From: a phage
Sequence record: PV806337.1
DNA length: 64,000 nt
Direction: 5' to 3' (one strand)
Of the stretch, positions 31,485 through 54,555 are shown piece after piece. A program made the position numbers and the translations under genes. The notes below the pieces were generated by a model. That model saw nothing but the letters and a program-made list of their open reading frames with translations, did no database searches and was not told the origin of the DNA. Each line of letters begins with the position of its first letter. Position 1 is the stretch's first letter.

Positions 31485-32123
31485 ATGACTACTCGTATCT
31501 CTAAAACTCGCGCTCTGGCAACTATCAAATCTCTGGAAGCTAAAATCCGTAAAGCTACTGAACAACAGCTTCTGATCGCTGTTGGTGAAGGTAAGGATAA
31601 AAATAAGGTTGTAGTTGGCGCTGCAATCGAAGTAGATGATTTATCTGAGCGTATTAAGACAGATTTCCAGTCCCTGCTGGATATGATGTCCCAGCGTGAT
31701 CGTATCAAAGCTGCTCTGATTAAGAGCAATGCAGAAACGATCGTTGAGATAGGCTCTCGTAAAATGACTGTTGCGGAAGCAATTGAAGCTAAGCGTTCTA
31801 TGGAACTTAAAGCCCAACTGCTGGCTAACATGCGTAAGCAGTTCCATGCCGCCACGGTTAAGTTTAATACGCAGAAAGCACAGTTTGATGCTAAATATGA
31901 GCGTTTGCAGGATAGCATGGCTACCCGTGATAAGAAAACTTCCGAAGATGAAGTTAAAATGCAGCTCAACCTGCTGGAACTCAAGAATACTCCATTCTTG
32001 ATTGATCCGCTGGAACTGGAGAAGCTGATTAAGCAGCATGACGAGGAATACCAGGACTTTGCAACAAATGTTGATTTTGTTCTGTCCGAGTCTAACGCCT
32101 CTACCTTCATTGAAGTAGAGTAA
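31485..32123 (+). CDS. hypothetical protein (212 aa), coiled-coil-rich
   Basis: Track ORF with RBS AAGGAAG; antisense track ORFs look spurious. Confidence 0.6.
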   Translation: MTTRISKTRALATIKSLEAKIRKATEQQLLIAVGEGKDKNKVVVGAAIEVDDLSERIKTDFQSLLDMMSQRDRIKAALIKSNAETIVEIGSRKMTVAEAIEAKRSMELKAQLLANMRKQFHAATVKFNTQKAQFDAKYERLQDSMATRDKKTSEDEVKMQLNLLELKNTPFLIDPLELEKLIKQHDEEYQDFATNVDFVLSESNASTFIEVE

Positions 32124-32506
32124 TAATTTAAAAGCTAGTAAATCGGTAGACGAAAGCCCAAGCATCTTACCTCGCAGCAGCGGTTGAAATACGAGGTTAA
32201 ATAAGACCGCTGACCATACTATAAAGTATAATCTATTGGAGATTATGTTTATTACACCAGCCTTTTAAGCTGACACGTAAGAACAAAGCGTCGTTGATAT
32301 TACCGACACAACTTCAAAGATCAACATTTAAGTATGAAAGCTGAAAAGTTTAAAGAACTCAAACTTCTAAACTTCTAAAGCTAAAAGATGCAAAGTATTC
32401 GTTGATGATTCAAACCCTAGATCAAAGGTACATGGCTCATAAGATATGGCCTGTGGCGCCTCTAGGCTGTTTATCGGTTTACTAGTTTCACAATTTAAAA
32501 ATGTAT

Positions 32507-32535
32507 TTGCTAATTTACTAAGTTATCTGTATAAT
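32507..32535 (+). promoter_or_regulatory. T5-type promoter
   Basis: -35 TTGCTA, 17 bp, -10 TATAAT upstream of 32566. Confidence 0.7.
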
Positions 32536-32565: not shown

Positions 32566-32883
32566 ATGACTTTTCATATTTTGATTGATGATGTGCGTAA
32601 TCTTCACGGAATGGATATTATCATTCGAACCCCAGAAGCCGCTGTAGAGTTTCTGAATAAAACTGATACCACCGGCCATTTCGTTTATATGGATAATGAC
32701 TTGGCTGTAGATGGTATGGAAGGTTATCAAATTCTTCGTTTACTCTTAGAATTTGGGCAGAGACCAAAGAAAGTGGTACTAGTAACCTCGAACCCAGTAG
32801 CTAAGCAAAATATGCGTAATGATTTGCTTGACTTAGGGTATAAAGAAAATCCCAATCGTGTTGAATATGATTGGCAGGAGTAA
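32566..32883 (+). CDS. hypothetical protein (105 aa), possibly receiver-like fold
   Basis: Track ORF with own promoter; acidic residues ILIDDV...MDNDL; weak. Confidence 0.5.
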   Translation: MTFHILIDDVRNLHGMDIIIRTPEAAVEFLNKTDTTGHFVYMDNDLAVDGMEGYQILRLLLEFGQRPKKVVLVTSNPVAKQNMRNDLLDLGYKENPNRVEYDWQE

Positions 32884-32888
32884 AAAGA

Positions 32889-33338
32889 ATGAAGGCAGCT
32901 TTGCTTTTAGTAGCTGCCCTTACCTTCAGCTTTAGTAGTCAGGCATCGCACGATGCAAAAGAAATAGATTGCATTGCTAAAAATATCTATTTCGAAAGTC
33001 GTGGTGAGGGCATAAAGGGAATGACGGCGATTGCACATGTTACTAAAAACCGTGTAAACTCCGGTAAATTCCCAGATTCCTACTGTAAAGTAGTATATCA
33101 GTCTAACCAGTTCTCTTGGGTATCTAAGAGACCAAAAGTTGATAAAACTGATGAGGCTTGGCAAACCGCTAAGAATTTAGCTAGAGTGATATACTACGTT
33201 GATTTACCACAAGATCCTACATATGGAGCACTATACTTCCATAGTGGTAAAGATAAACCTTACTGGACAAAGAAGTTTAAGAAAACAACTAAGATTAAGG
33301 GACATACATTCTATAAACCTGTTGTCACTAAAACTTAA
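32889..33338 (+). CDS. secreted cell-wall hydrolase, SleB/CwlJ-like
   Basis: Signal peptide MKAALLLVAALTFSFSSQA; block NIYFESRGEGIKGMTAIAHVTKNR typical of SleB-type hydrolases. Confidence 0.6.
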   Translation: MKAALLLVAALTFSFSSQASHDAKEIDCIAKNIYFESRGEGIKGMTAIAHVTKNRVNSGKFPDSYCKVVYQSNQFSWVSKRPKVDKTDEAWQTAKNLARVIYYVDLPQDPTYGALYFHSGKDKPYWTKKFKKTTKIKGHTFYKPVVTKT

Positions 33339-33346
33339 AAATTTAC

Positions 33347-33375
33347 TTGCTTAGCTACTTAAATTTCTGTATAAT
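33347..33375 (+). promoter_or_regulatory. T5-type promoter
   Basis: -35 TTGCTT, 17 bp, -10 TATAAT upstream of small ORF 33407. Confidence 0.7.
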
Positions 33376-33406: not shown

Positions 33407-33577
33407 ATGAAATCAGTTGTAATTATTGGTGTTAACACTCGCGGTATTCGTACTACGAAAACTGTTAAAACTTCTAACGTTGCTGAAATAACTACGAACC
33501 CTAAAAAGTTTGATTTCGCCAAAGTCTCAGCAGTTATGACAGAACAATCTTTTAACCAAGCATTGGGGATGAAATAA
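33407..33577 (+). CDS. hypothetical small protein (56 aa)
   Basis: Not in track (<60 aa); T5-type promoter and RBS GAGAGGAAG upstream; stop overlaps next start. Confidence 0.4.
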   Translation: MKSVVIIGVNTRGIRTTKTVKTSNVAEITTNPKKFDFAKVSAVMTEQSFNQALGMK

Positions 33578-34011
33578 TGGGTGAAAATATTCTAATGACC
33601 CTTCGTGGACTACTTAGTCTAGCACGTACTCACGGTGATAAGGAACGGGCACTTAATCTTCAGACCATGATTGGTGATCTGCAACGTATTGATAAAGACA
33701 TTGTTACTCGAACCGAGTTCGTAGCCTATCTGAAAGCTCAGATTAAGGCTCTAGAAAATGCAAAACAACGCGCTATTAAAGTTGGTATGGAAGTTCCTAC
33801 TGATGTAGACTATGAGCAACTGCTTTATTCCATGCTGCAAGAGTATCAGCCAAGTCAACTGACTGAGGTTCAGATTCGTGAGTATTTTGCAGAACTGGTT
33901 AAATTAAACCCAGGTATTACCAAAGCTCTATTAATGAAAACTATTAAGGCAGAATTTCCCGGACGTTATGACGGTAAAACAACTGCTTTGATTGCTAGTG
34001 AATTTTTCTAA
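33577..34011 (+). CDS. hypothetical protein (144 aa)
   Basis: Track ORF. Confidence 0.55.
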   Translation: MGENILMTLRGLLSLARTHGDKERALNLQTMIGDLQRIDKDIVTRTEFVAYLKAQIKALENAKQRAIKVGMEVPTDVDYEQLLYSMLQEYQPSQLTEVQIREYFAELVKLNPGITKALLMKTIKAEFPGRYDGKTTALIASEFF

Positions 34012-34270: not shown

Positions 34271-34342
34271 TGCCGTCCTAGTATAATTGGTATTATCAAG
34301 CCGTAACTGGTGGAAGATGTAGGTTCGAATCCTACGGTCGGT
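34271..34342 (+). ncRNA. degenerate tRNA-like fragment (T-arm and acceptor only)
   Basis: T-arm GTAGG-TTCGAAT-CCTAC and 6/7-bp acceptor GCCGTCC/GGTCGGT, no convincing anticodon arm, no CCA. Confidence 0.3.
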
Positions 34343-34845
34343 AAGAACTGGATAACTGATGCTTTTAACATAAAAGCTTCCGAGGTTAGTTGCGCACTGC
34401 CTAAACCACGCGGTAGTTGGTTCCAGACTAACCAACCAGTCTGCTGAATAGTTTTATTACGATTTAACTATGTCCAGGCTAAAGAAGAACTTTAGAAGGT
34501 ATTCTAGGATAGTGAAGTTCTTTCTCCATATCGGAGTAGTTTTTCAAGCTATCCACAAAGTGGGAAATGCTGACATGAGAGATGTCACTAATGGTGCACA
34601 ATAGCACAGGTAATTCGCGATAACTCCTGTTGAGTAGCAGCAAAAGGTGGGAAGTCATGACCCCAAGCCTAACCGAGTCCTCAATATACCGCAGGACATA
34701 ACCACTAAGTCACCCTGACTTAAACTGGAAAATAATAGACGTTACTGTATTTTGTCTTGAAATACTTAATGAGTGAGACTTATGACTCTCCCGGTATCGT
34801 CTGTATTTTTAAGAGTTTTTACGAGAGTTCTTAAAAATACTTAAA

Positions 34846-34954: not shown

Positions 34955-35902
34955 ATGTTTGCTACTAAAAATATGAAAGAACTGACTTCTGAGCAGAAAG
35001 TAATTCGTACTATTAAACGTTGGGGTATTGGTGCTGTAGTTGGTTTAGCAGGTTTAATCCTAGCTTTTAATTCATATACTATTGTTTCTGATGGTACGGT
35101 TAAAACCCAAACATTCCTGGGTAAAGTAGACCCTAATCCAGTATTGCCGGGCTTCCATCTTGTAAACCCGTTTGCATCTTTCGATACTTTTAGTACAAAA
35201 GATATTGCTGTAAAATTAGATAAACTTCAGGTTCCTAGCCAGGATAAGTTTAAATCCACTGTTGACCTGACTGTTATGTTGCAGTTTGATGGTTCTAAAG
35301 CACCGATTAACCGTATTAACGCAGGTACTCAGGATCAGGCACTAGACAAGTATGTAACTGAAAAATTACTGTCTACTATTCGTGAGTTTGGTAAGTCTGT
35401 ACCTAAAGCACAAGATTTATTTGATGCTAAAATTCAGGCTCAATTGCAAACTGCAATTCAACAGGAAGTTGAAGAGTATGCGCGCCCATATGGTTACACA
35501 GTTAAGCAGGTATTCCTTCAGGATATTACCTTGCCGCCAGTAATCATGGAACAGGTACAGAATACCAAAGTTCGTGAAGAGCAAGTTAATGCTGCGAAAG
35601 CTGAACTTGCTCGCGTTGAACAGGAAGCACAGCAAAAAGTTAAACAAGCAGAAGCAGATCGTGAAGCTCGTAACAACCAAGCTATTGCTAATGAACGTGA
35701 CGCAGATGCTAAACTGTACGCAGCTAAGAAAGAAGCTGAAGCTAACGCCGCATTGCAACGTACCATTACTCCTGAAATGATTCGTTGGAAACAACTGGAA
35801 GTTGAAATGATCCGTGCTCAGAAGTATCAAGGTGGTGTACCTCAGACTGTGGTAGGTACTGGCTACGATGGTCAAATGATCATGGATATGCGTAACAAGT
35901 AA
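34955..35902 (+). CDS. SPFH/band-7 (stomatin/prohibitin-like) membrane protein
   Basis: N-terminal TM (WGIGAVVGLAGLILAF), SPFH-like core, long Ala/Glu/Gln coiled coil. Confidence 0.65.
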   Translation: MFATKNMKELTSEQKVIRTIKRWGIGAVVGLAGLILAFNSYTIVSDGTVKTQTFLGKVDPNPVLPGFHLVNPFASFDTFSTKDIAVKLDKLQVPSQDKFKSTVDLTVMLQFDGSKAPINRINAGTQDQALDKYVTEKLLSTIREFGKSVPKAQDLFDAKIQAQLQTAIQQEVEEYARPYGYTVKQVFLQDITLPPVIMEQVQNTKVREEQVNAAKAELARVEQEAQQKVKQAEADREARNNQAIANERDADAKLYAAKKEAEANAALQRTITPEMIRWKQLEVEMIRAQKYQGGVPQTVVGTGYDGQMIMDMRNK

Positions 35903-42109: not shown

Positions 42110-42457
42110 ATGATTAATGCTAAAGAAGAATTGTTACTTGCCCTAAAGAATACTAATTCTGAAGTTAAGTGTATTAAGATAGAATTCGGTTATTATGGGG
42201 ATAAAGAAGTTTGGGTATTACCCGTAGGTTATACAGAAAAAGATATTGAAGATTTTCTAGATAATCTAGACTTTAAATATGATTCTGGTTTCGGCGGACA
42301 ATTGCTTTATGGTAACGTATGGTTTACCGATGGAACTTGGTTAGAACGTGGTGAATATGATGGTTCTGAATGGTGGGAATATAAGACTACACCAGCAATC
42401 CCAGAAGAATGCCGAACAATTAATGGTGAAGTAGATCGTACTTTACTATTAAATTAA
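42110..42457 (+). CDS. hypothetical protein (115 aa)
   Basis: Track ORF. Confidence 0.55.
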   Translation: MINAKEELLLALKNTNSEVKCIKIEFGYYGDKEVWVLPVGYTEKDIEDFLDNLDFKYDSGFGGQLLYGNVWFTDGTWLERGEYDGSEWWEYKTTPAIPEECRTINGEVDRTLLLN

Positions 42458-43073: not shown

Positions 43074-43151
43074 CTCCGTGTAGCTCAGTTTGGCCAGAGC
43101 GTTTCGTTTGGGGCGATAGGGTCGGGGGTTCAAATCCTCCCACGGAGACCA
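43074..43151 (+). tRNA. tRNA-Pro (anticodon TGG)
   Basis: Acceptor CTCCGTG/CACGGAG, D-arm GCTCAGTTTGGCCAGAGC, loop TTTGGGG, T-loop TTCAAAT, CCA. Confidence 0.7.
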
Positions 43152-43157
43152 AACAAT

Positions 43158-43235
43158 TGCGGGTTAGATCTCTGGTAGAGATCGCTAGTCTCATAAGCTA
43201 GAAAGAGGTAGGTTCGATTCCTGCACCCGCTTCCA
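43158..43235 (+). tRNA. tRNA with CAT anticodon (Met/fMet/Ile2)
   Basis: Anticodon stem CTAGT/GCTAG with loop CTCATAA, T-loop TTCGATT, CCA end. Confidence 0.65.
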
Positions 43236-43255
43236 CTTTAATAGAGGATTTCGAA

Positions 43256-43423
43256 ATGAAAGTATTTCGATTAGTAGTAAGTGACAAACGTTTAGGTAAG
43301 AATACCTCAAAATCCTTACTTGCTCATTATGGAAAAGATGAGAAAGAAGTAATGGCGGAGTTTGGGATTAATCACCCTTACTTGAAAGTTCACTCTATTA
43401 AAGAAGTATATAATGGTTACTAA
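43256..43423 (+). CDS. hypothetical small protein (55 aa)
   Basis: ATG after RBS AGAGGA between two tRNAs. Confidence 0.4.
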   Translation: MKVFRLVVSDKRLGKNTSKSLLAHYGKDEKEVMAEFGINHPYLKVHSIKEVYNGY

Positions 43424-43424
43424 T

Positions 43425-43503
43425 AGATCGCTAGCTCAATAGGTTTAGTAGCATCCGACTTTTAATCGGAAGGTTCTGGGTTCGAGTCCCAGGCGATCTA
43501 CCA
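43425..43503 (+). tRNA. tRNA-Lys (anticodon TTT)
   Basis: Acceptor AGATCGC/GCGATCT, anticodon stem TCCGA/TCGGA with loop CTTTTAA, T-arm CTGGG-TTCGAGT-CCCAG, CCA. Confidence 0.8.
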
Positions 43504-43521
43504 ATTTCAAGAAAAACGCAG

Positions 43522-50579: not shown

Positions 50580-51278
50580 ATGAGGATTATTTCTAAGTTC
50601 GCCGATGTGTATGATTTGCAGAACAGTTTGTTCGACCCAGATCGTGTTTGGGAGCGTAAAACTGAAGAGTTGCTGGTTAAAGTAACCGATGATGCAGAAA
50701 AGAACATTGTGCATACTCGCCAGGTATTTCGTGATGGCTCGCTATCTTTTCGTGGTGATTTCGAATATTTTGTAAACCCACTATTTGTTGCAGGTGAAGT
50801 TTACTGGTTGCACGAGCTGTACTGCTGGCATCCGGCATTTAGCTTCAAAACGTTCAACCTCGACACTATGTTCGATAAAATGGAAGAGATGGGGTTGCAT
50901 GCCCGCTCTTATTTAATGGATAAGAGTCGCGGAGATGTTCGTGAAACAATGCGTGATTTGCTCGCTGAAGCAAAACCTAAAGCAGAACGTATCTTATCCG
51001 AACTGCGTGTACCGATTGCATATGTGAAAGGTATTAAAAAGAACGATAACGATGATGTTCGTAACTTCGTGATTCAGACTAACATTCGTTTCCATCAGTC
51101 AGGTATTCCGTGGCAGGAAATTGAAAGTAACTTATACCGTTTACACCAAGTTCTCGAACAGTATATCTTCGGTGTACTAGGAACTGGTGAGCCTGATATG
51201 ATTAAAGTATCAGATAAAGACAGGTTAGCAGCGCATGGATTTGATACAAAAACTTCTTTCAGGAATATGGCAAGGTAA
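50580..51278 (+). CDS. hypothetical protein (232 aa)
   Basis: Track ORF with promoter and RBS. Confidence 0.6.
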   Translation: MRIISKFADVYDLQNSLFDPDRVWERKTEELLVKVTDDAEKNIVHTRQVFRDGSLSFRGDFEYFVNPLFVAGEVYWLHELYCWHPAFSFKTFNLDTMFDKMEEMGLHARSYLMDKSRGDVRETMRDLLAEAKPKAERILSELRVPIAYVKGIKKNDNDDVRNFVIQTNIRFHQSGIPWQEIESNLYRLHQVLEQYIFGVLGTGEPDMIKVSDKDRLAAHGFDTKTSFRNMAR

Positions 51279-51684
51279 GTGGTATATCCTGGGAGCAGGT
51301 CTAGCGATAGGCATCGGGTTCGGTGCTTATCACTTAGTAGATAAAGTGGAGACTTTAGCAGGAGATCTTGCGGTAGCTACTAAAAAGATTTCTTCTCTAG
51401 AGACTTCCCTCAATAAGGTGAAAGCTGAAAGCGAACTTCGTGAGACTAGAATGAATCAGTATTTCACAATGAATAATATTTCGCAAGCAGATCTAGACAA
51501 AAAGATTAAGCAGTTAGACAAAGCTCTTAGTCGCCAAGATATTATAGCTGCAAAGCCTGGATTGGTAACATTAATTGCTAAAAAGCAGAGTAAAGAGTTC
51601 GAGGAAAGATTAGCATGTTTAACTGGAAACTTGGAATACTGCTCGCAGCCGCAATCACAATCACAGGCTGTGCAGAAGAAATAA
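51235..51684 (+). CDS. membrane-anchored coiled-coil protein (possible i-spanin-like)
   Basis: N-terminal TM WYILGAGLAIGIGFGAYHLV then coiled coil; overlaps both neighbours. Confidence 0.5.
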   Translation: MDLIQKLLSGIWQGKWYILGAGLAIGIGFGAYHLVDKVETLAGDLAVATKKISSLETSLNKVKAESELRETRMNQYFTMNNISQADLDKKIKQLDKALSRQDIIAAKPGLVTLIAKKQSKEFEERLACLTGNLEYCSQPQSQSQAVQKK

Positions 51685-51968
51685 AACCAGAGCCATCTCA
51701 TGAGTTAAAGCAAGCTCATGTAGACTGGCCTAAAGGACTTCAACCTTGTAGCTTTGACTTTAAGTTTGAAAAGAAAGTAGCTACAAATGGAGAAGATGGC
51801 GTAGTAGTTGTTGTACCATATAAAGATTGGAATATGTTGGCAAAATGCCGTGAGGCAGAATATTCATATATTTCACGACTGACAAGTATGGTTTGCTTCT
51901 ATCGCCAAGATTTACAAGAAAAACGTTGCTTAGTTTACTATCCACCCATTACAAATAGGAAAGATTAA
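51615..51968 (+). CDS. lipoprotein (possible o-spanin-like)
   Basis: Lipobox LAAAITITGC; start embedded in upstream gene; RBS GAGGAAAG. Confidence 0.5.
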   Translation: MFNWKLGILLAAAITITGCAEEIKPEPSHELKQAHVDWPKGLQPCSFDFKFEKKVATNGEDGVVVVVPYKDWNMLAKCREAEYSYISRLTSMVCFYRQDLQEKRCLVYYPPITNRKD

Positions 51969-53488: not shown

Positions 53489-54145
53489 TTGGAAAAGTTC
53501 TTACAATTATTAACAGTACTGCTCCAAGAAGCGAAAGACCCAGCATCGCTTCTTAAACGTCTGCTAACTATCTTAGTTGCTGTCATTATTTTCTTATTTG
53601 TTAGTAATACTAGTGAAGTGATGTCATTCTTAAAGACTTTTTCCACGTCTGCAGTTTTACAGGATTTACAAACCCAGAGGATAGATAACTTCCCTAATGT
53701 GGCGAGGGAAAAGAGCATGGTTCTCTTCTCTCAGACGGGTGCAGATGCTGTTTTTGTAGTCAAGTATAAACCAGATGCTATCAATGACTATTCCAATATT
53801 ATTGCATGGGAAAGTAATGCGCAATTAGATAGGGCTGACTTGGCCGATAAAGCGGTAAATAAAACGTCTGAATTATACAGACGTCATTTAGAGGGCTTTA
53901 ACTACGCATCGGATCTAAGTGTAAGAGTAAATAAATATATGGGGTTAAATATACCTGCGTTTAAAAACGTTACTTTTAATTACATATACACTTGTCCATA
54001 CTTCAATCTAAAAAATATCTATGCTGGGTACATTGGTATTGCTTGGAAAGATAATCCGGTAGATACAGCTGATTCTGAACAGTTCAAGGAATATTTAGCA
54101 AAGCTCTGTTCCCCACAACAGAGATCTTTAGGTAGATCAATATGA
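53489..54145 (+). CDS. hol: holin (218 aa, TTG start)
   Basis: RBS AGAGGAGG then TTG; N-terminal TM; immediately upstream of and overlapping endolysin. Confidence 0.65.
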   Translation: MEKFLQLLTVLLQEAKDPASLLKRLLTILVAVIIFLFVSNTSEVMSFLKTFSTSAVLQDLQTQRIDNFPNVAREKSMVLFSQTGADAVFVVKYKPDAINDYSNIIAWESNAQLDRADLADKAVNKTSELYRRHLEGFNYASDLSVRVNKYMGLNIPAFKNVTFNYIYTCPYFNLKNIYAGYIGIAWKDNPVDTADSEQFKEYLAKLCSPQQRSLGRSI

Positions 54146-54555
54146 GTTTTAAATTTGGTAAAAATAGTGAAAAACAATTAGCTACCGTTAAGCCCGAACT
54201 ACAAAAAGTAGCTCGTAGGGCTTTAGAACTATCTCCGTATGATTTCACAATCGTGCAAGGTATTCGTACAGTAGCACAAAGTGCCCAGAACATTGCTAAT
54301 GGTACTTCATTTCTAAAAGATCCTAGTAAAAGCAAACATATTACTGGGGATGCTATTGATTTTGCTCCATATATTAATGGCAAAATTGATTGGAATGACT
54401 TAGAAGCATTTTGGGCAGTTAAAAAGGCTTTTGAACAAGCTGGTAAAGAGCTAGGCATTAAACTTCGTTTTGGTGCTGATTGGAATGCTTCGGGAGATTA
54501 TCACGACGAAATAAAACGTGGTACCTATGATGGCGGTCATGTCGAACTAGTTTAA
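54142..54555 (+). CDS. lys: endolysin, zinc L-alanyl-D-glutamate peptidase (M15)
   Basis: 137 aa MSFKFGKNSEKQLATVKPEL... matches my recollection of T5 endolysin; zinc ligands HITGDAID and GGHVEL. Confidence 0.9.
   Translation: MSFKFGKNSEKQLATVKPELQKVARRALELSPYDFTIVQGIRTVAQSAQNIANGTSFLKDPSKSKHITGDAIDFAPYINGKIDWNDLEAFWAVKKAFEQAGKELGIKLRFGADWNASGDYHDEIKRGTYDGGHVELV

What the first reader, a model, noticed from the sequence alone, without database searches (positions are those of the whole stretch)
32889..33338. Secreted SleB/CwlJ-like cell-wall hydrolase separate from the lysis cassette
This ORF has a cleavable signal peptide and an SleB-like hydrolase block, yet it lies 20 kb from the holin-endolysin pair and is driven by an early promoter. 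It may act on host peptidoglycan early, for example in remodelling or superinfection-related functions, rather than in lysis.
Basis: partly seen in the sequence, partly recalled or inferred. Interest (0 to 1): 0.45.

Follow-up and report, generated by a model that had tools for sequence, protein, structure and literature searches.

The report
Exported SleB-like wall hydrolase of T5
This is gene T5.083 of a T5-like coliphage, a small wall-cutting enzyme with an export signal that sits 20 kb from the phage's lysis genes; it is real and well conserved, but already annotated, already remarked on in print, and never tested experimentally.

Summary
Window 32889-33338 (+) is a 149-aa ORF, the ortholog of phage T5 gene T5.083. 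The window is 99.9% identical to T5-like phages.

- **Export signal:** a classic Sec signal peptide (MK / AALLLVAALTFSF / SSQA|S). 81 of 83 homologs share a hydrophobic N-terminus.
- **Position:** the T-type holin and M15 endolysin lie about 20.15 kb downstream.
- **Promoter:** the nearest consensus promoter (32507-32535) precedes the upstream cREC_REC gene, so this is the second gene of a bicistronic unit.
- **Conservation:** dN/dS is about 0.1, and the gene is present in about 521 of about 527 T5-type phage records.

It is not a SleB equivalog (TIGR02869 scores 50 bits against a cutoff of 236), because it lacks the N-terminal domain.

Best reading: a holin-independent periplasmic glycan-strand cleaving enzyme that assists lysis. 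T5's holin and endolysin are themselves in the early region. The gene and its distance from the holin were already described in 2012 and 2024. I found no experimental data. Novelty: already known. Interest is low to moderate.

The parts
32507..32535 (+). Sigma-70 type promoter, TTGCTA-17 nt-TATAAT, upstream of the two-gene unit
   Evidence: One search gives 10 of 12 matches. It falls inside the stretch that corresponds to the promoter feature annotated 5-79 nt upstream of T5.084 in NC_005859. It is a consensus match only. Promoter-like sites are not enriched in this region (8 found against 11.9 expected).
32566..32883 (+). Upstream gene (T5.084 ortholog), 105 aa, cREC_REC domain, with no export signal; inferred to be co-transcribed with the hydrolase gene
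   Evidence: Pfam PF20274 E=3.8e-15 and phrog_1479. No terminator-like site lies on the + strand between the promoter and 33338. No gene of this kind is annotated upstream in Klebsiella Sugarlandvirus, so the linkage is not obligatory.
32876..32880 (+). AGGAG ribosome-binding site, 8 nt before the ATG, lying inside the last codons of the upstream gene
   Evidence: Read directly from the sequence.
32889..32945 (+). Signal peptide, codons 1-19 (MKAALLLVAALTFSFSSQA); predicted SPase I cut between A19 and S20
   Evidence: The assignment is heuristic, not a SignalP run.
32946..33338 (+). Mature 130-aa domain (about 15.0 kDa, pI 9.7) plus the stop codon. The Hydrolase_2 / SleB catalytic fold covers residues 39-142 (nt 33003-33314).
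32994..32996 (+). Codon of Glu36, in the invariant motif Y-x-E-S/A-R-G-E; the putative catalytic glutamate
   Evidence: E36 and E40 are invariant in 27 aligned homologs. E36 aligns with position 120 of chain 4fet_B. That position is Glu151 if the 222-residue chain covers residues 32-253 of the precursor; this numbering is my inference from memory of the literature.
33347..33375 (+). Next promoter-like site, TTGCTT-17 nt-TATAAT, 9 nt after the stop codon; it marks the end of the unit
   Evidence: Read from the sequence. It corresponds to 'promoter P-D/E 33', annotated at 42227-42301 in T5. It falls below the scan's threshold for the first hexamer.
53489..54555 (+). For context: the canonical lysis pair. 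The T4-t-type holin lies at about 53489-54145 and the L-Ala-D-Glu peptidase-type endolysin at 54142-54555. The spanins lie at 51235-51968.

Best explanation
The ORF is the T5.083 ortholog of a T5-like phage.

**Expression.** It is transcribed as the second gene of a short sigma-70-driven unit in the early-gene block.

**Export (inferred).** The Sec pathway exports the precursor, and signal peptidase I cuts after Ala19. This leaves a 130-residue, basic, single-domain enzyme in the periplasm. It may be stabilised by a Cys28-Cys66 disulfide.

**Activity (inferred).** The domain has the fold and the glutamate motif of the SleB/CwlJ (Hydrolase_2) catalytic domain. That domain is a lytic-transglycosylase-type enzyme that cuts the MurNAc-GlcNAc bond of the glycan strand. 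The phage protein lacks SleB's N-terminal peptidoglycan-binding domain and must act on ordinary murein, since E. coli has no muramic delta-lactam.

**Role (inferred).** It reaches the wall without the holin. I therefore take it to be an auxiliary wall-weakening enzyme. It would attack the glycan strands, a different bond from the peptide stems cut by the cytoplasmic, holin-dependent peptidase Lys. It would contribute to lysis, probably staying harmless until the holin depolarises the membrane.

**What is shown and what is inferred.**
- Shown: gene structure, domain, fold, conserved motif, signal-peptide features, purifying selection and distribution.
- Inferred: export, cleavage, bond specificity, the timing of action and the accessory-lysis role.

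**Confidence.** About 0.85 for 'exported periplasmic SleB-fold murein-cleaving enzyme'. About 0.45 for the accessory-lysis role.
For: - **Identity:** 99.9% DNA identity to T5-like phages, where the gene is annotated 'SleB putative cell wall hydrolase' or 'endolysin'.
- **Motif:** Y34, E36, E40, G44, R55, C66, Q74, W77 and H139 are invariant, and C28 is nearly so.
- **Signal peptide:**. A hydrophobic N-terminus is present in 81 of 83 homologs. It is also present in the orthologs of Klebsiella and Proteus T5-like phages.
- **The gene is functional:** pairwise dN/dS is 0.10-0.15.
- **Distribution:** matches at 60% identity or more occur in 521 phage records. The T5-type holin matches in 527 at the same cut. 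The position between the RNase H / metallopeptidase genes and the tRNA block is conserved in Sugarlandvirus and Novosibvirus.
- **The family can serve as an endolysin:** in Chaseviridae (Mangalitsa gp80, PP101 gp79) an SP-bearing Hydrolase_2 protein directly follows the holin/antiholin gene. Hydrolase_2 is listed among the catalytic domains dominant in lysins of Gram-negative phages (PMC8223927).
- **Transcription:** in the T5-like phage Bas33 the syntenic 450-bp gene bas33_0077 shows about 1100-1200 RPKM at 20 min, similar to its upstream neighbour. Orthology rests on gene lengths and spacing, not on sequence.
- **Lysis genes share the region:** T5's own holin and endolysin lie in the same early region.
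Against: - I found no experiment on this protein or any close homolog.
- CRISPRi-ART knock-down of T5.083 gave 'Not Fit', meaning no measurable fitness cost (PMC11879866, supplementary file 16). That T5 screen also scored lys, nrdA and virion genes 'Not Fit', so it appears to have low sensitivity.
- SleB itself depends on muramic delta-lactam, which E. coli murein lacks (from memory). Activity on ordinary murein is therefore assumed, from the Chaseviridae gene context.
- An active transglycosylase exported from early times could be harmful. Latency until holin triggering is borrowed from secreted endolysins of other systems, not shown here.
- In several other phage families the homolog sits among early or replication genes, not lysis genes. 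That fits a non-lytic role equally well.
Confidence: 0.45

Rival explanations
1. **Non-lytic early periplasmic function.** The exported enzyme acts on the murein well before lysis. Possible purposes are remodelling or thinning of the sacculus, interference with superinfecting phages, or changes in muropeptide turnover. It would contribute little to lysis itself.
For: - The gene lies 20 kb from the holin/endolysin pair, among nucleotide-metabolism and tRNA genes.
- SP-bearing homologs in unrelated virulent phages also lie in early or replication neighbourhoods. They sit directly upstream of rIIA/rIIB in Vequintavirus. They sit between the ligase and DprA/helicase genes in Nankokuvirus. They sit next to ThyX, RNase H and Metallophos genes on uncultured phage contigs of about 85-95 kb.
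- Export is independent of the holin.
- Periplasmic early proteins with superinfection roles do exist; T4 Spackle is one example (PMC7677548, listed).
Against: - There is no direct timing data. The Bas33 RNA-seq has a single 20-min time point, at which late genes are also transcribed.
- T5's bona fide lysis genes are in the early region too, so position does not discriminate.
- Cutting the wall would be expected to help, not hinder, a superinfecting phage.
- No specific non-lytic mechanism is suggested by the sequence.
Confidence: 0.25
2. **Membrane-tethered (SAR-type) endolysin.** The N-terminal segment is not cleaved. It holds the enzyme inactive on the inner membrane until depolarisation releases it, as in P1 Lyz or phage 21 R.
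For: [quoted passage not shown]
- The Nankokuvirus homolog has a longer N-terminal hydrophobic stretch with no obvious cleavage motif.
- This model would explain how early export is tolerated.
Against: - The hydrophobic core here is only 13 residues. It is Leu/Val/Phe-rich rather than Gly/Ala/Ser-rich.
- It is followed by a canonical small-x-small site (S-Q-A|S), which is kept in orthologs (NSHA|T, HAQA|K, PAYA|T, NVQA|Q).
- No Cys lies in the signal segment.
Confidence: 0.1
3. **Catalytically inert wall-binding or regulatory protein.** The fold is retained, but the protein binds murein or another periplasmic partner, for instance as a blocker or decoy, rather than cutting.
For: - No activity has ever been measured.
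- The knock-down has no phenotype.
- SleB's substrate determinant, delta-lactam, is absent from the host.
Against: - The glutamate motif and the other core residues are invariant over homologs down to about 30% identity.
- The gene is under strong purifying selection.
- Family members occupy the endolysin slot next to the holin in Chaseviridae.
Confidence: 0.07
4. **Virion-associated lysin used at entry** to open the wall for DNA injection.
For: In some phages the SleB fold occurs as a domain of proteins longer than 1000 aa, such as those of Rhizobium phage Palo and Agrobacterium phage Atu_ph03. These are likely virion proteins.
Against: - A Sec-exported, cleaved periplasmic protein cannot be packaged into particles that assemble in the cytoplasm.
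- The gene lies on DNA that enters only at second-step transfer.
- It was not among the four AKFV33 structural proteins identified, though that survey was shallow.
- The PA5oct SleB-domain protein was not detected in virions.
- T5's entry muralytic activity is attributed to pb2 (my recollection of the literature, not checked here).
Confidence: 0.03

Closest known systems
Phage T5 gene T5.083 (YP_006911.1) and its orthologs in Markadamsvirinae
   Same: It is the same gene. The window ORF is 96.2% identical in DNA to T5 and 100% identical to T5_ev212 and ECOP18. The neighbours are the same (T5.084 upstream, T5.082 and T5.081 downstream), and so is the distance to the lys/holin pair.
   Different: Nothing of substance. 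There are 5 amino-acid differences from T5. Annotations vary between records: 'conserved hypothetical', 'endolysin', 'SleB putative cell wall hydrolase', 'spore cortex-lytic enzyme precursor'. The last is a misnomer for a coliphage.
SleB, the spore cortex-lytic transglycosylase of Bacillus (PDB 4FET, 4F55)
   Different: - The phage protein has no N-terminal peptidoglycan-binding domain. TIGR02869 matches only over profile positions 79-201, and 50 bits is far below the 236.5 cutoff.
- The host wall has no muramic delta-lactam.
- The conserved Cys28/Cys66 pair corresponds to Leu/Met and Ser in SleB.
- The biology differs: phage infection of a Gram-negative cell rather than spore germination.
Hydrolase_2 endolysins of Chaseviridae (Escherichia phage Mangalitsa gp80, Pectobacterium phage PP101 gp79)
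   Same: They have an N-terminal signal-like segment followed by a single Hydrolase_2 domain, with the same motif and the same Cys pair, and they infect enterobacterial hosts.
   Different: - They sit immediately after a holin/antiholin gene and are annotated as the endolysin.
- The window's gene is 20 kb from the holin, and its phage has a separate M15 endolysin.
- Identity is only about 36-46% over part of the protein.
- They have a linker of about 30 residues between the signal and the domain.
Secreted (signal-peptide) endolysins such as Lys44 of Oenococcus phage fOg44, and SAR endolysins (P1 Lyz, phage 21 R)
   Same: The analogy is in how they work: holin-independent Sec export of a muralytic enzyme, whose action is thought to be unleashed by membrane depolarisation. 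This rests on my knowledge of the literature plus the general statement.
   Different: They belong to different catalytic families and are the sole endolysin of their phage. SAR domains are not cleaved. Nothing here shows latency or activation.
Stand-alone SP-bearing Hydrolase_2 genes in early or replication regions of other virulent phages (Vequintavirus bas48_0065, Nankokuvirus CHA_P1 gp152, uncultured contigs of 85-95 kb)
   Same: They share the architecture and also lie away from the lysis cassette.
   Different: Identity is only 35-45%. The neighbours differ (rIIA/B, ligase/DprA, ThyX). They too are uncharacterised.

Membership tests
Pfam Hydrolase_2 (PF07486; SleB/CwlJ catalytic domain, COG3773) | Score above the curated gathering threshold over the whole domain model | tested here: met
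   89 bits against a cutoff of 27, E=3.4e-25, profile positions 1-100 of 100.
Pfam Hydrolase_2 (PF07486; SleB/CwlJ catalytic domain, COG3773) | SleB catalytic-domain three-dimensional fold | tested here: met
Pfam Hydrolase_2 (PF07486; SleB/CwlJ catalytic domain, COG3773) | Conserved catalytic glutamate in the E-S/A-R-G-E motif | tested here: met
   E36 and E40 are invariant in 27 homologs and aligned with the GESRGE motif of SleB. Which Glu is catalytic, and its numbering (Glu151), come from memory. The SleB structure paper could not be opened.
Pfam Hydrolase_2 (PF07486; SleB/CwlJ catalytic domain, COG3773) | Peptidoglycan-cleaving (lytic transglycosylase) activity | not testable with these tools
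   This needs a zymogram or muropeptide analysis. I found no published assay.
SleB proper (NCBIfam TIGR02869 spore_SleB, equivalog) | Full-length match above the equivalog cutoff, including the N-terminal peptidoglycan-binding domain | tested here: not met
   50.4 bits against a cutoff of 236.5. Only profile positions 79-201 of 201 match. The protein has nothing between the signal peptide and the catalytic domain.
SleB proper (NCBIfam TIGR02869 spore_SleB, equivalog) | Acts on muramic-delta-lactam-containing spore cortex in an endospore former | tested here: not met
   The genome is a T5-like coliphage or salmonella phage. Its hosts form no spores. That they lack delta-lactam murein is established knowledge, not tested here.
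Canonical phage endolysin (member of a holin-endolysin lysis cassette) | Adjacent to, or co-transcribed with, the holin or spanin genes | tested here: not met
   The holin/lys pair lies at about 53489-54555 and the spanins at 51235-51968, about 18-20 kb away, with many promoters and tRNA genes in between.
Canonical phage endolysin (member of a holin-endolysin lysis cassette) | Required for host lysis | tested here: inconclusive
   The only data are CRISPRi-ART calls of 'Not Fit' for T5.083, but also for lys. The holin scored 'Fit'. The screen's sensitivity for T5 is evidently low.
Sec-exported protein with a cleavable type I signal peptide | Positive n-region, hydrophobic h-region of 7-15 residues, and small residues at -3 and -1 | tested here: met
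   K2; A3-F15; S17-Q18-A19|S20. The pattern is conserved in orthologs. The assessment is heuristic only; no SignalP or Phobius was available.
Sec-exported protein with a cleavable type I signal peptide | Demonstrated export and cleavage | not testable with these tools
   This needs reporter fusions, or N-terminal sequencing of the mature protein.
SAR (signal-anchor-release) endolysin | Uncleaved, weakly hydrophobic, Gly/Ala/Ser-rich N-terminal transmembrane segment of about 18-22 residues | tested here: not met
   The hydrophobic core is 13 residues and rich in Leu, Val and Phe. It is followed by an A-x-A-type site.

The most novel reading that the evidence does not exclude
Large virulent phages of Gram-negative bacteria may share an unstudied class of Sec-exported, single-domain SleB-fold transglycosylases encoded in early or replication regions, away from the lysis cassette. 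Examples are T5-like, rV5-like and PAK_P3-like phages and uncultured 85-95 kb phages. Such enzymes would act on the host sacculus well before lysis for a non-lytic purpose: pre-conditioning the wall to set lysis timing, altering muropeptide turnover, or interfering with competing phages. A related possibility is that T5.083 makes the canonical endolysin Lys partly redundant. That would explain why the holin, but not lys, scored as fitness-relevant in CRISPRi-ART.
Probability: 0.2. Interest if true: 0.55.

Novelty: already known. Interest (0 to 1): 0.25.

Why it matters
As a sequence feature it adds nothing new. The gene is annotated in hundreds of T5-like genomes. Its SleB domain and its position far from the holin were noted in 2012 (PMC3326045) and 2024 (PMC11180984).

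What remains open is the biology. A model phage keeps, under strong purifying selection, a second wall-cutting enzyme that reaches the periplasm without the holin. Several unrelated virulent phages have a gene of the same kind, also away from the lysis cassette. Nobody appears to have tested why.

A clear answer would refine the textbook holin-endolysin-spanin picture for T5-like phages, which are widely used for biocontrol. It would also say whether Hydrolase_2 enzymes act on ordinary Gram-negative murein, which matters for lysin engineering.

Tried and rejected
- **Literature searches.** I looked for experimental work on T5.083 or phage Hydrolase_2 enzymes with these queries:
  - 'bacteriophage T5' + SleB: 2 papers, both in silico.
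  - 'T5.083': 0 papers.
  - Hydrolase_2 + phage + endolysin + SleB: 0 papers.
  - The broader queries: only genome reports and surveys.
- **Papers that could not be used.**
  - The Pantoea phage PA1 (Chaseviridae) endolysin paper concerns a different, lysozyme-like, signal-less enzyme.
  - The survey of viral lytic proteins does not mention the family.
  - The SleB structure paper and the T5 virion proteome paper are not held. The numbering of the catalytic residue and the statement about virion content therefore rest on memory or indirect evidence.
- **Expression timing.** The PhageExpressionAtlas has no T5-like dataset. The Bas33 RNA-seq has only one time point, so 'early' could not be verified directly.
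- **Disulfide.** The Cys28-Cys66 idea could not be checked because model coordinates are not exposed.
- **Functional coupling to the cREC_REC gene.** Rejected as a requirement, because no cREC-type gene is annotated upstream of the ortholog in Klebsiella Sugarlandvirus, and Bas33 has an 822-bp gene in that slot.
- **Lipoprotein or Tat export.** Rejected: there is no lipobox Cys and no twin arginine.
- **ncRNA overlap.** Rfam found only tRNA-type matches nearby.

Full report
**What the window is.** The 2.5 kb around the finding is 99.9% identical to Escherichia phages vB_EcoS_MM-1/-2 and T5_ev212. It matches 448 phage records, nearly all T5-like. The window's + strand corresponds to the minus strand of the T5 reference map. 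The ORF in question is the ortholog of T5.083 (YP_006911.1). Its flanks are T5.085, T5.084, T5.082 and T5.081, followed by the tRNA block.

**Check of the observation.**
- **ORF.** ATG 32889 to TAA 33338 encodes 149 aa. An AGGAG site lies 8 nt upstream.
- **Family.** The protein matches Pfam Hydrolase_2 over the whole model (E=3.4e-25, 89 bits against a cutoff of 27) and PHROG 938 'endolysin'.
- **Solved relatives.** The only solved relatives by sequence are the SleB catalytic domains 4F55 and 4FET.
- **Conserved residues.** Y34, E36, E40, G44, R55, C66, Q74, W77, H139 and F141 are invariant, and C28 is nearly so. E36 and E40 align with the GESRGE motif of SleB.
- **Signal peptide.** The N-terminus has the three parts of a Sec type I signal peptide: MK, a 13-residue Leu/Val/Phe-rich core, and SSQA|S. 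It has no lipobox and no twin arginine.
- **Conservation of the signal.** Orthologs keep an Ala at -1. 81 of 83 homologs have a hydrophobic segment before the catalytic motif.
- **Lysis genes.** The T-type holin (PF11031) and the M15-type endolysin lie at about 53489-54555, and the spanins at 51235-51968. The stated 20 kb separation is therefore correct.

**Transcription.** The nearest consensus promoter, TTGCTA-17-TATAAT at 32507-32535, precedes the upstream gene (32566-32883), not this ORF. That upstream gene encodes a cREC_REC domain protein with no export signal. Its stop codon is 5 nt before the hydrolase ATG, and no terminator-like site intervenes. The hydrolase is therefore most likely the second cistron of a two-gene unit.

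A second site, TTGCTT-17-TATAAT at 33347-33375, follows the stop codon. It corresponds to T5's annotated 'P-D/E 33'.

In the T5-like phage Bas33, the syntenic 450-bp gene shows about 1100-1200 RPKM at 20 min after infection, similar to its upstream neighbour. Orthology is inferred from identical gene lengths and spacing. That dataset has one time point, at which late genes are also transcribed. The 'early' label therefore rests on map position only.

T5's holin and endolysin lie in the same early region. An early-type promoter does not argue against a role in lysis.

**Is the gene doing something?**
- **Selection.** Pairwise dN/dS among the window, T5, DaisyDussoix, UTK0009 and a Klebsiella Sugarlandvirus ortholog is 0.10-0.15.
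- **Distribution.** Protein matches at 60% identity or more occur in 521 phage records. The T5-type holin matches in 527 records at the same cut. The gene is close to universal in this group.
- **Synteny.** It keeps its place between the RNase H / metallopeptidase genes and the tRNA block in Sugarlandvirus and Novosibvirus.
- **Knock-down.** CRISPRi-ART knock-down of T5.083 had no measurable fitness effect. The same screen called lys, nrdA and virion genes 'Not Fit' while calling the holin 'Fit'. I therefore read this result only as 'not strictly required in the laboratory'.

**Relatives outside T5-like phages.** The family is widespread in phages, in four kinds of context:
- **Next to the holin.** In Chaseviridae (Mangalitsa gp80, PP101 gp79) a Hydrolase_2 protein with a signal-like N-terminus directly follows the holin/antiholin gene and is annotated as the endolysin.
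- **Next to rII genes.** In Vequintavirus, a homolog with a textbook signal peptide sits just upstream of rIIA/rIIB.
- **Among replication or nucleotide-metabolism genes.** In Nankokuvirus it lies among ligase, DprA and helicase genes. On uncultured phage contigs of 85-95 kb it lies beside ThyX, RNase H and Metallophos genes.
- **As a domain of very large proteins.** In some phages the fold is one domain of proteins longer than 1000 aa.

A survey of phage lysins lists Hydrolase_2 among the catalytic domains dominant in phages of Gram-negative hosts (PMC8223927).

**Most likely mechanism.**
- **Shown:** a conserved, expressed gene for a single-domain SleB-fold protein with an intact glutamate motif and a signal peptide.
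- **Inferred, export and maturation:** Sec export, cleavage after A19, and a 15-kDa basic periplasmic enzyme, possibly with a C28-C66 disulfide. The two Cys correspond to Leu/Met and Ser in SleB.
- **Inferred, activity:** cleavage of the glycan strand in the manner of a lytic transglycosylase, on ordinary murein, with access to the wall independent of the holin.

I favour an auxiliary lysis role (confidence 0.45). In this view the enzyme complements the peptide-stem-cutting Lys and probably stays innocuous until the holin depolarises the membrane. That last point is by analogy with secreted endolysins and is not shown here.

The recurrent early or replication neighbourhoods fit it, but no direct evidence does. 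Lesser rivals are a SAR-type tether (0.10), an inert binding protein (0.07) and a virion enzyme (0.03).

**Comparison with known families.**
- **Hydrolase_2:** member, by domain score, fold and motif.
- **SleB proper:** not a member. TIGR02869 scores 50 bits against a cutoff of 236.5 and matches only the C-terminal half. The protein has no peptidoglycan-binding domain, and the host has no spore cortex. 'Spore cortex-lytic enzyme precursor', found in several records, is a misnomer here.
- **Canonical cassette endolysin:** not one, by position.
- **Working analogy:** secreted or signal-peptide endolysins.

**Novelty and verdict.**
- **Prior description.** The gene is annotated in T5 and in hundreds of relatives. 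AKFV33's authors listed 'lysozyme, holin and cell wall hydrolase SleB' in the early region in 2012. Guzel et al. in 2024 explicitly discussed the SleB-domain 'endolysin far from holin' in T5-like Salmonella phages and called for experiments. Further genome papers list it as a second lytic gene.
- **Experimental data.** I found no functional data.
- **Verdict.** The finding is correct and ordinary as a feature. It is already known, and its interpretation is only partly supported. One modest open question remains: what a holin-independent, strongly conserved second muralytic enzyme is for.

Noticed in passing
window 32566-32883 (+): The gene just upstream (T5.084 ortholog) carries a cREC_REC 'cyclic-phosphate processing receiver' domain (PF20274, E=3.8e-15; phrog_1479, function unknown). 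Its stop codon is 5 nt before the hydrolase ATG. No such gene is annotated upstream of the hydrolase in Klebsiella Sugarlandvirus, and Bas33 has an 822-bp gene in that slot.
   Followed up: partly
window 34272-34343 (+): Rfam finds a tRNA-type match here (35.5 bits, gathering score 29) that ARAGORN does not report. Relatives annotate it as 'tRNA' or 'tRNA-OTHER'. It lies in the stretch corresponding to T5's 'RNAX stable RNA with unknown functions'.
   Followed up: no
window 34955-35902 (+): This 315-aa protein has an N-terminal membrane segment and an SPFH/Band_7 domain (PF01145, E=2e-17). It is the ortholog of T5.080, annotated 'lipoprotein'. A prohibitin-like membrane protein in a phage early region is unexplained.
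   Followed up: no
window 53489-54555 (+), and T5 CRISPRi-ART data: The T5-type holin belongs to the T4 'T holin' family (PF11031, E=2e-112). In the published CRISPRi-ART screen the holin scored 'Fit', but the endolysin lys, the spanins and T5.083 scored 'Not Fit'. This may reflect low screen sensitivity, or redundancy between the two muralytic enzymes.
   Followed up: partly
window 32124-32506 (+): A stretch of about 380 bp lies without a convincing ORF between the T5.085 ortholog and the promoter of the cREC/hydrolase unit. It is likewise unannotated in T5 (43142-43504). Rfam finds nothing there at gathering thresholds.
   Followed up: partly
window 31485-32123 (+) and 33577-34011 (+): Two neighbouring annotations in public records look doubtful. 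One is 'tail fiber protein' (phrog_1491) for a 212-aa gene in the early region with no Pfam hit. The other is 'tRNA amidotransferase' or 'recombination-related exonuclease' for a 144-aa protein with only a sub-threshold YqeY-like match (18 bits against a cutoff of 27).
   Followed up: no
L006 2902-5381 (Escherichia phage CarlMeissner, Vequintavirus): An SP-bearing Hydrolase_2 gene ends 4 nt inside the start of rIIA, which is followed by rIIB. This is a conserved-looking arrangement that might tie the periplasmic hydrolase to rII-type membrane-integrity or lysis-timing functions.
   Followed up: no
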